This document shows, piece by piece, positions 32,719-48,483 of a stretch of 64,000 nucleotides of DNA. A program made the position numbers and the translations under genes. The notes under the pieces were generated by a model. That model was not told the origin of the DNA, did not search any database, and saw only the letters and a program-made list of their open reading frames with translations. Position 1 is the first letter of the stretch. Each line of letters begins with the position of its first letter. Source of the DNA: a virus. The DNA is taken from IMG/VR virus record IMGVR_UViG_3300046532_001046, positions 1-64,000 of that record, one strand, 5' to 3'.

Positions 32719-33482
32719 GCACCCAGCCCGAGGTCTAGGTGGACGAGGGCCGGGTGGTCCTCGGTCAGGGTCGGGCTGGTGTTGAGGAGGTCCTGTAGTT
32801 GCTCGGCCTCCTCCTCGGTCATCACCACGACTACCGTGCCGTGCTCCTCCAGTAGGTCCTGCCGTTCTTCCTCGTCAATCGCTTCATGGATCTCTTCAAG
32901 GCACAGAGCGTCCCTCTCGGTCTTGCCGGGGCCGTCCCACGATTCCCAGAGGGGGCACCAGTGACCCTTGCCGCAGTCGCACAGCCGGGGGTCTTCGGTG
33001 GACTCATCGACTGACTCAAACGCCTCCCGGCGTGCGTCGTACTCGTCGCTGTCGTAGTCAAAGCCAGCCGCAGCACGCTCGTCCTCACCGTGGCCTTGGC
33101 AGTAGTCGATCACGTCGCCGCAGTAGCCACAGCGACTGACGTGCTCCTCATCCTGGAGATCACCAGTACTCTCACTGTCGGTGGTCTCGCCGGGGGGTAC
33201 GTCACTGTCTGTTGACCACGTCTGGTGGTCGAACTCCCCGGAGACCACCCGTGCGATGACCTCGTCCCACGTCAGGCTGAACCCCTTGCTCCGGGGCCGG
33301 TCACGCCACCCTGCTGACTGGTCGTCCAGCACGAGGTCCAGCCCGGTGTCGGAGACCGTCAGCAGTACGGCGGTGTCGGCTGGCTTCGGGCCGAACGCCT
33401 CGGACACGATGAACAGGTGGTCGACCCGGTCACCTCGTGAGTAGTCAATGTGCTTGGTCGTGTGGATGGTGTGGATGGTCAT
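32715..33482 (-). CDS. acidic early protein with Cys/His clusters
   Basis: CGYCGDVIDYCQGH and CDCGKGHWC; GAGGAG RBS. Confidence 0.75.
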   Translation of the reverse strand: MTIHTIHTTKHIDYSRGDRVDHLFIVSEAFGPKPADTAVLLTVSDTGLDLVLDDQSAGWRDRPRSKGFSLTWDEVIARVVSGEFDHQTWSTDSDVPPGETTDSESTGDLQDEEHVSRCGYCGDVIDYCQGHGEDERAAAGFDYDSDEYDARREAFESVDESTEDPRLCDCGKGHWCPLWESWDGPGKTERDALCLEEIHEAIDEEERQDLLEEHGTVVVVMTEEEAEQLQDLLNTSPTLTEDHPALVHLDLGLGA

Positions 33483-45528: not shown

Positions 45529-45649
45529 ACCACAATAATACCACGATCACCCTGACACCTTAGTGTACAGGATCAAGTATCCCATAAAGATACTTAAAGC
45601 GAGGATGATTGACAATGGAATGAGTGTCACGTACCAGTTTCTTAGAAAC

Positions 45650-46441
45650 TTAAGCAACCGAACCTTCCCAACATTTCTTTGACGGATTCCAGTGATGTAC
45701 GCCACTGCTGTAGTATAGCCATGCGGCGGTGGCGACATTGGCTCGCCCGTGGAACGGGGGGTAGTCCTTAAAGCCCGCCTTACCGGAACGCTCAACCCAG
45801 TACTTCGCCAAGTGTTGAAACCAGCCGATGGCTAGAGCCGATGACACCGAGGTAGACCCTATGTCCCAACTCCGTCCACTGGACTCACAGAAGGCGATCC
45901 TCTGAGCGAGTGCCCTGTCCTCGGGCAGGAAGTATTCGTTTATCAGTTCTCCCAGAGTCGGAAGTTCATAGTGCTCGTCACCCGACAAGCACCCGTGTGA
46001 ACAGGGCGTCGGTGATTGCATGACCTCAGGGTAGAAGTACAGGATGGCAGACATGGGATTACCGAACGATTTGATGTGTGCCTTGCGGGTCTGTGGTCCG
46101 TAGACGCCATCGACGTAGTCCATCCCCAGTTCCTCTTGGAGGGCCACAATCTGTGGGCCTTTGTCGTAGTAGTTATAGCGCTCAGTAAGCGGACTACGAG
46201 TATTGCTGGGTGACGATGAAGTGGTGGTAGACGACGGGGAGGTGGTTGAGGTGGTGGGGGGATCAACAACGACCCCGCCGTCTACCGGGTGGAGGTGCGG
46301 GGAATCGAACCCCGGTGCAGCAATCGTCCGCGTGCGGGTTTCCTTGCTATCGAAGCCATCCTCACCCCCTAGGTCACTAGCATACCACCCTAGTTGCATG
46401 ACTGTGAGTATTCCTAAGGTTAGTACTCGTGCCAGAAACAT
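45650..46441 (-). CDS. secreted lytic transglycosylase with peptidoglycan-binding domain
   Basis: N-terminal hydrophobic signal, Thr/Ser linker, G..IVALQ..L....DGVYGPQT, then IAFCESSG...AIGWFQ...ANVATAAWLY....HW. Confidence 0.85.
   Translation of the reverse strand: MFLARVLTLGILTVMQLGWYASDLGGEDGFDSKETRTRTIAAPGFDSPHLHPVDGGVVVDPPTTSTTSPSSTTTSSSPSNTRSPLTERYNYYDKGPQIVALQEELGMDYVDGVYGPQTRKAHIKSFGNPMSAILYFYPEVMQSPTPCSHGCLSGDEHYELPTLGELINEYFLPEDRALAQRIAFCESSGRSWDIGSTSVSSALAIGWFQHLAKYWVERSGKAGFKDYPPFHGRANVATAAWLYYSSGVHHWNPSKKCWEGSVA
46288..46369 (-). ncRNA. miniature tmRNA-like RNA (tRNA-like domain only) nested in the transglycosylase CDS
   Basis: GGGGGUG/CACCUCC acceptor stem with G3-U, A discriminator then CC; tmRNA-type D-loop AGGAUGGCUUCGA; P2a UAGCAA/UUGCUG; T-arm CGGGG-UUCGAUU-CCCCG. 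Confidence 0.78.
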
Positions 46442-46464
46442 AGTTCCCCCTACACTGTTGGTGG

Positions 46465-46851
46465 CTACAGAATGTCAAAGAGCATCCTGCTTGGTTCATC
46501 ATACTCGGGGTCACCTTGGTTTGGCAAGAGGTCCGGGTCGATTGGTTCCGAAAGCATACGTTCCTCGTGTGCTAACCAACACTTACCACACCGGCAGCCA
46601 CGTCTGTAGTCCTCCCACTTTCCATGAGCCGTGGATGACTTCTTACGCTCCTTGGGAGTCAGCCCACCGAACATTCCCCACTTCTCGTCCTGTCCCACCT
46701 TTAAGCATGTCTCCCACACGGGACAGGTTGAGCACACGACTCGGCCCATCTCGTACCACTGGTTAGGGTCCTTGGCCTCCATCGGGGGGTACCACATAAA
46801 CTGGGCTTTCCCCCGGCAGGGGGCCTCTTTTATCCAATCGGGTGTTTCCAT
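46465..46851 (-). CDS. whiB: WhiB-family transcription factor with extra C-terminal HG...Y..GCRC..C module
   Basis: W...APCRG...CSTCPVWETCL...WGMFGGLTPKER. Confidence 0.92.
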   Translation of the reverse strand: METPDWIKEAPCRGKAQFMWYPPMEAKDPNQWYEMGRVVCSTCPVWETCLKVGQDEKWGMFGGLTPKERKKSSTAHGKWEDYRRGCRCGKCWLAHEERMLSEPIDPDLLPNQGDPEYDEPSRMLFDIL

Positions 46852-47052: not shown

Positions 47053-48483
47053 TCAGTCCACTACCTCGGCGTCATGGATCTCTTCTAACAGCCGATTACT
47101 CTGCTCTGCGTTAAAGCCACCGCCGGGGAGGGTTTGTGCAGCCCTCCCTGCCTCGGCTCCAAACAGGCGGGACAGCACCCCGCTAGTTCCTCTGGTCTCC
47201 ATTGAGATGGACAGCATCTCACGAGATTCGTTCACGGTCTTCATCTTGTCGATGAGTGTGAACAGCCGATCCATCTCGGCAGAGAGGGCCGGGTCCAACC
47301 CCTGCCCCTCCAGTTCTTCGGCAAAGCGAGCGAACAACACACGACTCGCCTGAATCTCAATCATCACCCGCATGGCTGCATTCAGTTGGTCCTTGGTGCG
47401 TATCTCCACGGGCAACTTAAAGCCACACTCGGAATGTTCCTTGAATGCCGGACACCTCGCCGCCAGATAGCAACTATCGCACTGTCTCAGGAGGGTGTCG
47501 CCGGTAACTAAAGTGTTTACGACGTTGGGAGCGATTTCGGTGTATTGTCCCTGCTCATCAGTGGTTTGTTCCCCCAATGACGTGATGGCCTCAATACCGA
47601 TACCCGGTAACAACACCTTCTCATCTTCGTGCCGCTTTAACACAACACCGATAGCAAGATCAGATGTGTGTGAAACCCCAGCATGTCCATCAGGGTCTCC
47701 TCCCCCGATAGCAACTATCTGGGGGTCATCTGTACCCCCATCACCGTCTGCGTTGTAGTCACGGGAAGGGTCATAGCCCGACGAACCCGACCATGCTTGC
47801 CACGACCGGATCGCCAATAGTCCCATCGCTGACACTGAGTCTTCCATGACCTCCCCGAAGTCCACACCCAGCCTCAGGATGTCAGCCCGGTGGCGCTTGC
47901 GTGCGCTCTCCTTCTGCTGGGCAGGGTACCGACGCAGACCATGCCCGTCCCACACCTGTGTCTCTCCGTACCGTATTACTGAGGTCCATGACCCAACCAC
48001 CACTGAGTCCCACGGTCCAGCGTCGATGGAGTCCACCTTGGACGTGAGGGCAATCATCTTGGTGCCCCACCTCTGGTGGAGTTGGTTGATGCGGGGCAGG
48101 GTCTTACCAGTAATGGCTTTGTCACTTAAAGCGACCCTTCCATGCTTCTGGCACAGCCACGCCAGACGCTCTAGGTCCTCTTTATCGTTCCAGATCGGTA
48201 CGTACTTTTCGCCCAGCCAGTCCCCCTCATAGTTGGGTGGACAGATGACTACGTCTAGGTCCTCCTCATGCTGGCGAATGAACGAGTCAAACCTATGGAG
48301 ATCCTCGTCGGTTTCTGAGGTGTACACGAGGATGTCTCCACCCTCAAACTTATCGCTGAGGATGAGTTCCTTACGTTTGGGGATGGACAACTGAGTGAGG
48401 TTGACACCGAACGACGTGACTCCAGCGGACAGGAGAATGGATAGATAAGAACCCTTCTCAGCGCCACCAAAGTAGACCTTCAA
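47053..48483 (-). CDS. two-domain phage protein: degenerate TGT-like barrel plus Cys4/helical C-terminus
   Basis: VYFGG start, PWDSVVVGSW..VIRYG; CDSC.....CP......C; helical tail. Confidence 0.6.
   Translation of the reverse strand: MKVYFGGAEKGSYLSILLSAGVTSFGVNLTQLSIPKRKELILSDKFEGGDILVYTSETDEDLHRFDSFIRQHEEDLDVVICPPNYEGDWLGEKYVPIWNDKEDLERLAWLCQKHGRVALSDKAITGKTLPRINQLHQRWGTKMIALTSKVDSIDAGPWDSVVVGSWTSVIRYGETQVWDGHGLRRYPAQQKESARKRHRADILRLGVDFGEVMEDSVSAMGLLAIRSWQAWSGSSGYDPSRDYNADGDGGTDDPQIVAIGGGDPDGHAGVSHTSDLAIGVVLKRHEDEKVLLPGIGIEAITSLGEQTTDEQGQYTEIAPNVVNTLVTGDTLLRQCDSCYLAARCPAFKEHSECGFKLPVEIRTKDQLNAAMRVMIEIQASRVLFARFAEELEGQGLDPALSAEMDRLFTLIDKMKTVNESREMLSISMETRGTSGVLSRLFGAEAGRAAQTLPGGGFNAEQSNRLLEEIHDAEVVD

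What the first reader, a model, noticed from the sequence alone, without database searches (positions are those of the whole stretch)
46288..46369. An 80-nt tag-less mini-tmRNA written in frame inside a secreted transglycosylase gene
Seen: the minus strand from 46369 to 46290 reads GGGGGUG AGGAUGGCUUCGA UAGCAA GGAAACCCGCACGCGGACGA UUGCUG CAC CGGGG UUCGAUU CCCCG CACCUCC A, followed by CC. This gives a 7-bp acceptor stem with G3-U and an A discriminator, a stemless D-loop ending GGCUUCGA, a 6-bp P2a helix, a 3-nt linker and a perfect T-arm. Established: these are the tRNA-like domain hallmarks of tmRNA (E. coli GGGGCUG..GGAUUCGAC / GAC GCGGG UUCAACU CCCGC CAGCUCCA), recognised by AlaRS, SmpB and RNase P; tag-less tmRNAs are known from jakobid mitochondria. 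Here the whole pseudoknot and mRNA-like region is replaced by 20 nt. The element occupies codons 25-51 (GGEDGFDS...PGFDSPHL) of the open 263-aa ORF, between the signal segment and the PG-binding/catalytic domains, on the same strand. Inference: it is a dual-function sequence. It could be a processed RNA that sponges SmpB or rescues ribosomes without a degradation tag, and/or a cis element whose RNase P/3' processing cuts the cell-wall hydrolase mRNA and so times its expression. I am not aware of this arrangement being described, but cannot verify novelty.
Basis: partly seen in the sequence, partly recalled or inferred. Interest (0 to 1): 0.92.

Follow-up and report, generated by a model that had tools for sequence, protein, structure and literature searches.

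The report
Mini-tmRNA gene nested inside phage gene
An 80-base RNA gene, the tRNA-like head of the bacterial ribosome-rescue RNA (tmRNA) without its tag-coding part, sits in frame inside the coding sequence of a secreted cell-wall-cutting enzyme of a marine actinobacterial phage, and relatives conserve both the RNA fold and the reading frame, which I could not find described.

Summary
Window 46290-46369 (minus strand) is a tRNA-like-domain-only (TLD-only) mini-tmRNA. It scores 54.2 bits on Rfam tmRNA (cut-off 47), with 303 model positions deleted. It fills codons 25-51 of the 263-codon ORF 45650-46441.

TLD-only tmRNAs are known from mycobacteriophage DS6A, where the gene is intergenic. This scan has noted such RNAs on other DNA many times. 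My scans gave 94 distinct copies, mostly stand-alone.

What is new is the nesting:
- In 29 of 155 loci the RNA lies in frame in homologues of this gene, after a conserved ribosome-binding site and signal peptide. The encoded stretch is predicted to be disordered.
- Among nested copies the P2 helix covaries at 7 of 8 pairs.
- Third-codon-position divergence is 0.046 inside the RNA against 0.36-0.51 in the flanking coding sequence.
- All 17 distinct nested copies are exactly 80 nt and open in frame 0, against 42 of 77 stand-alone copies.

The phage has no integrase, SmpB or tRNA gene.

The most likely reading is a dual-use sequence: the RNA is cut out by tRNA-processing enzymes and acts on host SmpB and trans-translation. 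That function is untested. No expression data could be obtained.

The parts
46290..46369 (-). TLD-only mini-tmRNA, 80 nt from G1 (46369) to discriminator A (46290). Acceptor 5' strand 46363-46369; D-loop 46350-46362; P2 5' strand 46342-46349; inner 3-bp hairpin 46328-46337; P2 3' strand 46318-46325; T-arm 46298-46314; acceptor 3' strand 46291-46297. Equals codons 25-51 of the ORF.
   Evidence: Rfam RF00023 at 54.2 bits, above the gathering score; own model R1 at 96.5 bits; covariation among nested copies and across the family.
46287..46289 (-). CCC in the place of the CCA tail. CCA is not encoded here; most stand-alone copies encode CCA.
46226..46286 (-). Conserved 61-nt hairpin that starts 3 nt after the discriminator. 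The 14-bp outer stem pairs GGUAGACGGCGGGG with CCCCGUCGUCUACC, and there are inner stems. No U-run follows it. It encodes linker residues VDGGVVVDPPTTSTTSPSSTT.
   Evidence: Present in every nested locus with different sequences. 98.4% of cells paired, 8 of 19 pairs changed on both sides, 0 of 500 shuffles reach the observed values. Mean downstream energy is -35 kcal/mol for nested copies against -18.6 for stand-alone copies.
45650..46441 (-). 263-codon ORF (stop included): signal peptide, TLD-encoded 27 aa, hairpin-encoded Thr/Ser/Pro linker, peptidoglycan-binding-like domain, lysozyme/lytic-transglycosylase-like domain.
46370..46441 (-). Codons 1-24, signal peptide MFLARVLTLGILTVMQLGWYASDL. 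Homologues carry a lipobox Cys (LGCYP); the window copy has Trp in its place.
   Evidence: Codon position 2 is the most conserved (0.169 against 0.316 and 0.363), as expected for translated hydrophobic sequence.
46445..46450 (-). Shine-Dalgarno-like GGGGGA, 3 nt upstream of the ATG; conserved in the sister loci.
46031..46183 (-). Residues 87-137, peptidoglycan-binding-like domain (conserved VDGVYGPxT motif).
   Evidence: VIA-align matches to PG-binding domains at Z 4.5-4.8; invariant columns. No Pfam match.
45653..45970 (-). Residues 158-263, lysozyme/lytic-transglycosylase-like catalytic domain with invariant FCESS (E186).
   Evidence: VIA-align: Slt/Slt70 Z 6.9-7.1, MltE 6.5, phiKZ gp144 6.4, RpfB 5.9; alignment A1.
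46498..46527 (-). Sigma-70-like promoter match (TTGCCA, 18 nt, TATGAT; 10 of 12) in the 3' end of whiB. This is weak evidence.
   Evidence: 2 sites found against 1.1 expected by chance.

Best explanation
The 80 nt at 46290-46369(-) are a working gene for a tag-less mini-tmRNA. The RNA has the alanine-type acceptor stem, D-loop, P2 helix and T-arm of tmRNA, and lacks the pseudoknots and tag frame. It is nested in frame in the part of a phage gene that encodes the disordered tether between the signal peptide and the cell-wall-binding and lysozyme-like domains.

Shown:
- The RNA fold is kept by selection in the nested copies.
- The reading frame and the upstream translation start are kept.
- A second structured element, a 61-nt hairpin, always follows the nested RNA.

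Inferred:
- On transcripts, or transcript stretches, free of ribosomes the domain folds. Host RNase P cuts at G1, and 3' processing plus CCA addition finish an RNA of about 83 nt.
- The hairpin marks or protects the 3' boundary. It sits where the terminator hairpin of some stand-alone copies sits, but has no U-run, so transcription can read on into the enzyme-coding part.
- The released RNA is charged by AlaRS and binds SmpB and EF-Tu. It then either titrates SmpB away from host tmRNA or enters stalled ribosomes without adding a degradation tag, as proposed for the DS6A-type RNA.
- When the same nucleotides are translated they give 27 tolerated residues in the tether.
- Excision cuts the mRNA, so RNA and enzyme are alternative products of one transcript.
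For: RNA identity:
- Rfam tmRNA at 54.2 bits against a gathering score of 47, matched end to end.
- G3.U is invariant in all 97 aligned family members. Across the family 96.6% of cells pair and 18 of 23 pairs change on both sides; slid controls pair at 49-66%.

Selection on the nested copies themselves:
- 17 distinct copies pair at 97.7%. The P2 helix, which the search pattern left free, has 7 of 8 pairs changed on both sides, and 0 of 500 shuffles reach the observed values.
- Among 13 sister genes, third-codon-position divergence is 0.046 in TLD nt 8-55, against 0.363 (signal peptide), 0.438 (catalytic domain) and 0.513 (PG-binding domain). Inside the RNA, position 2 varies most, which is not a coding pattern.
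- In homologues found by protein search alone, the paired codons change together: K(AAG) with L(CUU) in 6 proteins, M(AUG) with H(CAU) in 4, R(AGA) with S(UCU) in 1.

Translation through the element:
- The GGGGGA-ATG-signal-peptide unit upstream is conserved.
- Frame 0 is open in 17 of 17 nested copies against 42 of 77 stand-alone copies. All nested copies are exactly 80 nt, while stand-alone copies range from 74 to 92 nt.
- Residues 17-80 have pLDDT below 50.
- The downstream domains have PG-binding and lytic-transglycosylase folds and need export.

Persistence:
- The arrangement holds in a syntenic dpdA-whiB-gene lineage with WhiB identity of 62-96%, and in a 215-aa subfamily with only 42-44% identity in the catalytic domain.

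Hairpin:
- It is present and covaries in all nested loci.
- No comparably strong hairpin follows most stand-alone copies, including the five closest to the nested ones. Some stand-alone copies have a hairpin plus U-run terminator instead.

Context:
- Stand-alone relatives lie in tRNA arrays, which suggests shared processing.
- The 3' 29 nt equal the real tmRNA 3' ends of many Actinomycetota, and WhiB points to an actinobacterial host.
- A DS6A-like RNA inhibits tmRNA in E. coli, as reported in PMC4131195 and PMC11915505.
Against: - There are no expression data.
- The window copy has a weakened P2 helix (5 Watson-Crick pairs plus one U.G), GAU in the D-loop, and CCC instead of CCA.
- In a 271-nt context fold, the T-arm and the hairpin form but the acceptor stem does not.
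- The acceptor stem and most of the T-arm were fixed by the patterns used to collect the loci, so their invariance in that set carries no information.
- A strong ribosome-binding site suggests heavy ribosome traffic, which would unfold the RNA.
- The inhibition experiment used a DS6A-like RNA in E. coli. I could not read the primary paper, Mao et al. 2009.
Confidence: 0.6

Rival explanations
1. The element acts mainly in cis on the mRNA. The tRNA-like domain and its hairpin recruit RNase P or RNase Z, or stall or terminate transcription or translation, to set the timing or dose of a dangerous cell-wall hydrolase. The excised RNA is a by-product with no role in trans.
For: The hairpin is specific to nested copies. 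This points to a role tied to the mRNA context. Excision necessarily cuts the message. The phage has a separate endolysin, according to an earlier unchecked note (e1-5967356), so this enzyme may need special control.
Against: The nested copies keep every feature of the stand-alone, trans-acting family: G3.U, discriminator A, the D-loop motif and the inner hairpin. A mere RNase P handle would not need these. Most homologues of the enzyme (98 of 120 protein clusters, 45 of 48 viral loci) do without the element.
Confidence: 0.2
2. A decayed remnant of a mini-tmRNA gene was captured into the linker and now serves only as protein sequence.
For: The window copy is the weakest of its group. The element lies in a disordered, tolerant linker. 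Its presence is patchy on the tree of the C-terminal domain.
Against: Compensatory changes in P2 occur among the nested copies. Third-position divergence is about tenfold lower than in the flanks. Codon position 2 varies more than position 3. Rfam scores of the other nested copies tested are 53-74.5 bits, in the range of stand-alone copies.
Confidence: 0.06
3. It is a phage attachment site (attP) that copies the 3' end of the host tmRNA gene for integration.
For: The 29 nt at the 3' end are identical to tmRNA gene ends of many Actinomycetota, and tmRNA genes are common integration targets (PMC11915505).
Against: The 100-kb, CheckV-complete record has no tyrosine or serine recombinase. The exact mini-tmRNA pattern has no match in one genome from each of 185,579 species. 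The 5' acceptor strand, D-loop and a covarying P2 helix are also conserved, and an attP site would not need them.
Confidence: 0.02
4. The long ORF is an annotation artefact. The RNA gene lies between a short upstream ORF and an enzyme gene that really starts downstream.
For: Several other mini-tmRNAs that appear to lie in long ORFs are in fact upstream of the true starts: a DNA polymerase in L058 and a prohead protease in L113. Some database gene calls of 157-183 aa start after the linker.
Against: Homologues without the RNA also carry an N-terminal signal peptide. The lysozyme-like enzyme needs export. The ribosome-binding site, ATG and signal peptide upstream are conserved and show a coding substitution pattern. 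The frame is open, the offset is always 0 and the length is always 80 nt in all nested copies.
Confidence: 0.04

Closest known systems
TLD-only (CDS-less) tmRNA of mycobacteriophage DS6A (tmRNA Website tmID 11587; Hudson, Lau and Williams 2014, PMC4131195; PMC11915505)
   Same: A phage-encoded RNA of about 80 nt, made of the tmRNA acceptor stem, D-loop, short P2 helix and T-arm, with no tag frame or pseudoknots and from an actinobacterial host. My model R1 finds it at 61.5 bits and Rfam at 43.2 bits.
   Different: The DS6A copy lies in the gap between gp33 and gp34 and is not in a coding sequence. The window copy is in frame inside a translated gene and is followed by a conserved hairpin without a U-run.
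Stand-alone phage mini-tmRNA family
   Same: The same architecture and covarying helices. The closest stand-alone copies (L157, L113, L166, L188) score 93-99 bits with the model built from nested copies.
   Different: They are intergenic, often lie in tRNA arrays or before terminators, usually encode CCA, range from 74 to 92 nt, and carry a stop in frame 0 in 45% of copies.
Tag-less tmRNAs of jakobid mitochondria and some plastids (PMC11915505)
   Same: tmRNA reduced to the tRNA-like domain.
   Different: These are organellar stand-alone genes that co-occur with imported SmpB, and they are not nested in a protein gene.
tRNA-like elements cut out of longer transcripts by RNase P and RNase Z: MALAT1/mascRNA and plant mitochondrial t-elements (from my own knowledge; the Rfam mascRNA model matched only the T-arm, 16 bits)
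   Same: This is the proposed working principle: a tRNA-shaped module inside a longer RNA is recognised by tRNA-processing enzymes, which release a small RNA and define the ends of the host transcript.
   Different: Those modules lie in non-coding or untranslated RNA. They are not in frame in a coding sequence and are not tmRNA-derived. No homology is implied.
Dual-function bacterial RNAs (RNAIII/hld, SgrS/SgrT, SR1; from my own knowledge)
   Same: One transcript carries both a protein-coding role and a structured-RNA role.
   Different: In those RNAs the small ORF and the RNA-acting regions are largely separate. Here the same 80 nucleotides are both codons and a complete RNA gene.

Membership tests
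tmRNA (Rfam RF00023), tRNA-like domain | Scores at or above the family's gathering score, aligned from the 5' to the 3' end of the model | tested here: met
   54.2 bits against 47, model positions 1-374.
tmRNA (Rfam RF00023), tRNA-like domain | 7-bp acceptor stem with G3.U70 and discriminator A (alanine identity) | tested here: met
   Sequence. G.U is invariant in 97 of 97 family members.
tmRNA (Rfam RF00023), tRNA-like domain | Encoded 3' CCA | tested here: not met
   The window has ACCC. Nested copies have ACCC, ACCA, ACAC or ACUC, and most stand-alone copies have ACCA. CCA would have to be added after transcription.
tmRNA (Rfam RF00023), tRNA-like domain | T-arm (5 bp, loop UUCGAnU) and stemless D-loop GGnUUCGAC | tested here: met
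   The window D-loop ends GAU instead of GAC.
tmRNA (Rfam RF00023), tRNA-like domain | P2 helix joining the two halves, supported by covariation | tested here: met
   7 of 8 pairs changed on both sides among nested copies and 8 of 8 across the family. The window copy keeps 6 of the 8 pairs.
Canonical tmRNA (full length) | mRNA-like domain with resume codon, tag ORF and pseudoknots | tested here: not met
   303 model positions are replaced by 19-20 nt. ARAGORN finds no tmRNA. The element therefore belongs to the TLD-only class and is not a canonical tmRNA.
Canonical tmRNA (full length) | Alanylation by AlaRS, binding of SmpB and EF-Tu, entry into stalled ribosomes | not testable with these tools
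   This needs biochemistry. The phage has no SmpB gene, so host SmpB would be the partner.
Lytic transglycosylase / lysozyme-like superfamily (host gene) | Lysozyme-like fold of the catalytic domain | tested here: inconclusive
   VIA-align Z 6.9-7.1 to Slt/Slt70. The top 16 rows and most of the top 40 are lysozyme-fold enzymes aligned to residues 158-263. These Z values are middling. Foldseek's best match is E 0.39, and the model's mean pLDDT is 63.9.
Lytic transglycosylase / lysozyme-like superfamily (host gene) | Match to a sequence family (Pfam SLT or related, PHROG, PDB by sequence) | tested here: not met
   No Pfam, PHROG or PDB sequence match. An invariant Glu-Ser (FCESS, E186) is present.
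Bacterial lipoprotein (host gene) | Lipobox with Cys at +1 after the signal peptide | tested here: not met
   Homologues have LGC, LSGC or MAC directly before the RNA. The window copy has LGW, so it is secreted or signal-anchored but not lipidated.

The most novel reading that the evidence does not exclude
A complete RNA gene and a protein-coding segment share the same 80 nucleotides, strand and frame, and form a built-in switch. A ribosome may read through and make an exported cell-wall hydrolase. Alternatively the tRNA-like domain folds and RNase P cuts it out. That cut yields a mini-tmRNA and, at the same moment, a stop-less signal-peptide mRNA, which is itself a substrate of ribosome rescue. 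The nested-copy-specific hairpin acts as a leaky, U-less terminator or as a block to exonucleases, and sets the ratio of RNA to enzyme. Hydrolase synthesis would then be coupled to the state of host translation and trans-translation.
Probability: 0.2. Interest if true: 0.9.

Novelty: new variant of a known kind. Interest (0 to 1): 0.74.

Why it matters
Structured RNA genes that lie wholly inside a translated reading frame on the same strand, with selection visible on both readings, are very rare in bacteria and phages. This case shows what the sequence signature looks like. The paired codons change together. Third codon positions are almost frozen while second positions drift. The length is fixed at a value that keeps the frame. 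An extra hairpin appears only when the RNA is nested.

The finding also bears on phage mini-tmRNAs, which standard annotation misses: ARAGORN finds none here, and a homologous copy in a cultured Streptomyces phage is unannotated. It shows that they can hide inside protein genes. It also gives a natural system to ask how tRNA-processing enzymes and ribosomes compete for one transcript, and what phages gain by interfering with host ribosome rescue.

Tried and rejected
- ARAGORN found no tRNA or tmRNA in the window or in the whole 100-kb genome.
- blastn of the locus and tblastn of the protein against 50,697 cultured phage records gave no match. Only short or partial matches came from the 96-nt query. 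One was a full-length stand-alone copy in Streptomyces phage pSt2308.
- Pfam, PHROG and PDB sequence searches of the 263-aa protein gave nothing. Foldseek against PDB gave nothing below E 0.39.
The DNA of the ENA- and NCBI-only homologues (P0004, P0014, P0015 and others) therefore could not be fetched by that route. Metagenome loci with the same encoded peptides stood in for them.
- The exact mini-tmRNA pattern had 0 matches in genome contigs, so there is no prophage or host assignment by that route.
- The attP idea was rejected.
- Minimum-free-energy folding of the isolated element was not informative, and the context fold was not informative for the acceptor stem.
- A sliding-window search for hairpins in homologues without the RNA did not discriminate, because these GC-rich linkers often fold at -25 to -44 kcal/mol somewhere. 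The specificity of the hairpin therefore rests on its fixed position and covariation, not on that scan.
- Other long ORFs that cover mini-tmRNAs (L051, L053, L058, L059, L068, L073, L082, L092, L113, L157, L164) were judged spurious or upstream of the true starts.
- Mao et al. 2009 is not in the held library.
- The tree count of gains and losses is an upper bound, because some rows scored 'no TLD' are truncated gene calls.
Full report
**1. The observation**

It has these parts, in order:
- acceptor 5' strand GGGGGUG;
- a stemless D-loop ending GGCUUCGA;
- a P2 helix UAGCAA/UUGCUG around a 20-nt insert;
- a 3-nt linker;
- the T-arm CGGGG-UUCGAUU-CCCCG;
- acceptor 3' strand CACCUCC and discriminator A, then CCC.

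Rfam's tmRNA model matches 46287-46369(-) from its first to its last position at 54.2 bits (gathering score 47). The E-value is 1.8e-20 on 700 nt and 1.7e-18 on the whole window, and 303 internal model positions are replaced by 19 nt. It is the only Rfam match in the window and the only tmRNA match in the record. That record is a 100,418-nt IMG/VR virus that CheckV rates as complete. ARAGORN calls nothing in the window or the genome.

G1 is the first base of codon 25 of the ATG-started ORF 45650-46441(-), and the element ends in codon 51.

**2. A large family of mini-tmRNAs**

TLD-only tmRNA is published for mycobacteriophage DS6A, and a similar RNA inhibits tmRNA in E. coli (PMC4131195, PMC11915505). 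I checked the DS6A copy. It lies in the gap between gp33 and gp34, outside any coding sequence.

Together they hold 94 distinct RNAs of 74-92 nt with one architecture.

A covariance model built from the nested copies finds all of them, plus DS6A and an unannotated copy in a tRNA array of Streptomyces phage pSt2308. In that alignment:
- 96.6% of cells pair;
- 18 of 23 pairs change on both sides;
- G3.U is invariant in 97 of 97;
- slid controls pair at 49-66%.

One caveat applies. That alignment is fitted to the model, and the search patterns fixed the acceptor stem and part of the T-arm.

Earlier notes of this scan had already reported such stand-alone mini-tmRNAs on other DNA many times. None that I found mentions nesting in a coding frame.

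**3. What is special here: the nesting**

Of 155 loci, 29 carry a homologue of the window's catalytic domain. In all 29 the RNA lies upstream in the same ORF at frame offset 0. Other long ORFs that cover mini-tmRNAs are high-GC noise, or the RNA sits before the true start of the gene.

The nested loci share a conserved GGGGGA ribosome-binding site, an ATG and a signal peptide. In most the signal peptide ends in a lipobox Cys (MFLVRV...LGCYP), which in the 215-aa subfamily directly abuts the RNA. In the window copy this Cys is Trp.

The arrangement persists in two settings:
- a syntenic dpdA-whiB-gene lineage with WhiB identity down to 62%;
- a shorter 215-aa subfamily with only 42-44% identity in the catalytic domain.

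In an independent sample drawn by protein similarity, 22 of 120 homologue clusters carry the encoded peptide GG...PGFDSPHLH. In 48 viral loci found through C-terminal motifs, 3 carry the RNA. The nested state is therefore a minority within the enzyme family. It is patchy on the tree of the C-terminal domain, consistent with shuffling of the N-terminal module. That count is an upper bound.

**4. Selection on both readings**

RNA reading:
- Among 17 distinct nested copies, 97.7% of cells pair.
- The P2 helix, which the search pattern left free, has 7 of 8 pairs changed on both sides. No shuffle out of 500 reaches the observed values, and slid controls pair at about 50%.
- Among 13 sister genes, mean pairwise divergence at third codon positions is 0.046 in TLD nt 8-55. 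It is 0.363 in the signal peptide, 0.438 in the catalytic domain and 0.513 in the PG-binding domain.
- Inside the RNA, codon position 2 varies most. This is the reverse of a coding pattern.
- The protein-only sample shows the same effect as paired amino-acid changes: K (AAG) with L (CUU), M (AUG) with H (CAU), R (AGA) with S (UCU).

Protein reading:
- Frame 0 is open in 17 of 17 nested copies but in only 42 of 77 stand-alone copies.
- All nested copies are exactly 80 nt, while stand-alone copies range from 74 to 92 nt.
- The signal-peptide codons show the coding pattern, with position 2 the most conserved.
- The AlphaFold model puts residues 17-80 below pLDDT 50, so the RNA-encoded 27 residues lie in a disordered tether.
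- Residues 158-263 align to lytic transglycosylases and lysozymes: Slt/Slt70 Z 6.9-7.1, MltE 6.5, phiKZ gp144 6.4, RpfB 5.9. Residues 87-137 align to PG-binding domains at Z 4.5-4.8.
- These Z values are moderate and no sequence family matches. 'Transglycosylase' is therefore a fold-level reading. It is helped by the invariant FCESS motif.

**5.

Three nucleotides after the discriminator, a 61-nt hairpin begins (46286-46226). Its 14-bp outer stem pairs GGUAGACGGCGGGG with CCCCGUCGUCUACC.

- Every nested locus has it at the same place, with different sequences and different encoded peptides.
- 98.4% of cells pair, 8 of 19 pairs change on both sides, and 0 of 500 shuffles reach the observed values.
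- The 75 nt after nested copies fold at a mean of -35 kcal/mol, against -18.6 after stand-alone copies.
- None of the five stand-alone copies closest to the nested ones is among the 45 strongest downstream folds.
- Some stand-alone copies have a classic hairpin plus U-run terminator instead.
- The nested hairpin has no U-run.

Its role is inferred only. It may be a 3' boundary or protective element, or a leaky terminator that still lets the polymerase reach the enzyme-coding part.

**6. Rivals**

- An attP site is unlikely. The record has no integrase of either class. The exact pattern has no copy in genomes of 185,579 species. The 5' half and the P2 helix are conserved. The identity of the 3' 29 nt with real tmRNA ends of Actinomycetota fits derivation from, or mimicry of, host tmRNA, and WhiB points to an actinobacterial host.
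- A dead relic is contradicted by the covariation and the frozen third positions.
- An annotation artefact is contradicted by the conserved translation start, the signal peptide and the frame.
- A purely cis-regulatory role cannot be excluded. It is partly implied, because excision cuts the message.

**7. Mechanism and limits**

The best reading is a dual-use sequence. tRNA-processing enzymes release an Ala-type mini-tmRNA, which binds SmpB and either blocks tagging or rescues ribosomes without a tag. The same bases, when translated, supply a tolerated tether segment.

The phage has no SmpB gene and no tRNA genes, so host factors must be used.

Nothing about expression, cleavage, charging or binding is shown. 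The window copy is one of the weaker members of its group.

**8. Novelty**

The RNA class is known. What I could not find in the held literature or in the scan's notes is the combination of in-frame nesting in a translated gene, selection visible on both readings, and a hairpin specific to the nested copies. I rate this a new variant of a known kind and of high interest to RNA and phage biologists.

Noticed in passing
L061:6093-6154(-), L099:690-754(-), L065:5916-6012(-): Pistol self-cleaving ribozymes (RF02679, 50.7-51.9 bits, gathering score 34.5) lie on the same strand about 100 nt upstream of stand-alone mini-tmRNAs in L061 and L099, and 2.2 kb upstream in L065. They may be a 5'-processing or transcript-unit partner.
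   Followed up: no
window 47053-48483 (-): The 476-aa gene two genes upstream matches phrog_887, queuine tRNA-ribosyltransferase (DpdA-like), at E 7.5e-34. This hints at 7-deazaguanine DNA modification. The dpdA-whiB-enzyme order is conserved in the sister loci.
   Followed up: partly
window 46465-46851 (-): A WhiB-family gene (Pfam PF02467, E 1.7e-10) ends 23 nt before the enzyme gene. A weak sigma-70-like promoter match lies in its 3' end at 46498-46527.
   Followed up: partly
P0033 (protein cluster): This 230-aa homologue has a C-terminal domain identical to that of the RNA-bearing P0016 and P0018. It reads GLDLRKAACRSLRDRGTLPRTAP, a mini-tmRNA-like stretch partly in another frame, and has no signal peptide. 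It is a frameshifted or decayed variant, or an assembly error.
   Followed up: no
L061, L075, L096, L186, L204: ARAGORN-324-nt 'tmRNAs' with odd tags (AWDYNPMWVQCSA, AARFMFYELFVY) that end exactly at the 3' end of mini-tmRNAs. These are probably false extensions of the mini copies.
   Followed up: no
L325:1501-1581 (Streptomyces phage pSt2308, record 33356-33436): An unannotated mini-tmRNA (Rfam 61 bits) lies inside the tRNA array of a cultured 113-kb Streptomyces phage.
   Followed up: partly
window 45547-45795 (-): An 82-codon ORF overlaps the 3' end of the enzyme gene in another frame and ends in a hydrophobic segment. Weakly similar ORFs occur at the same place in sister loci. Whether it is a real gene was not examined.
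   Followed up: no
A1 / proteins P0023, P0027, P0029, P0053, P0056, P0061, P0079 and L056-type loci: Many homologues without the RNA, and the L056 type just before its RNA, share a short N-terminal motif (S/T)(F/Y)SEA(F/H/T)R in an otherwise variable linker. Its meaning is unknown.
   Followed up: no
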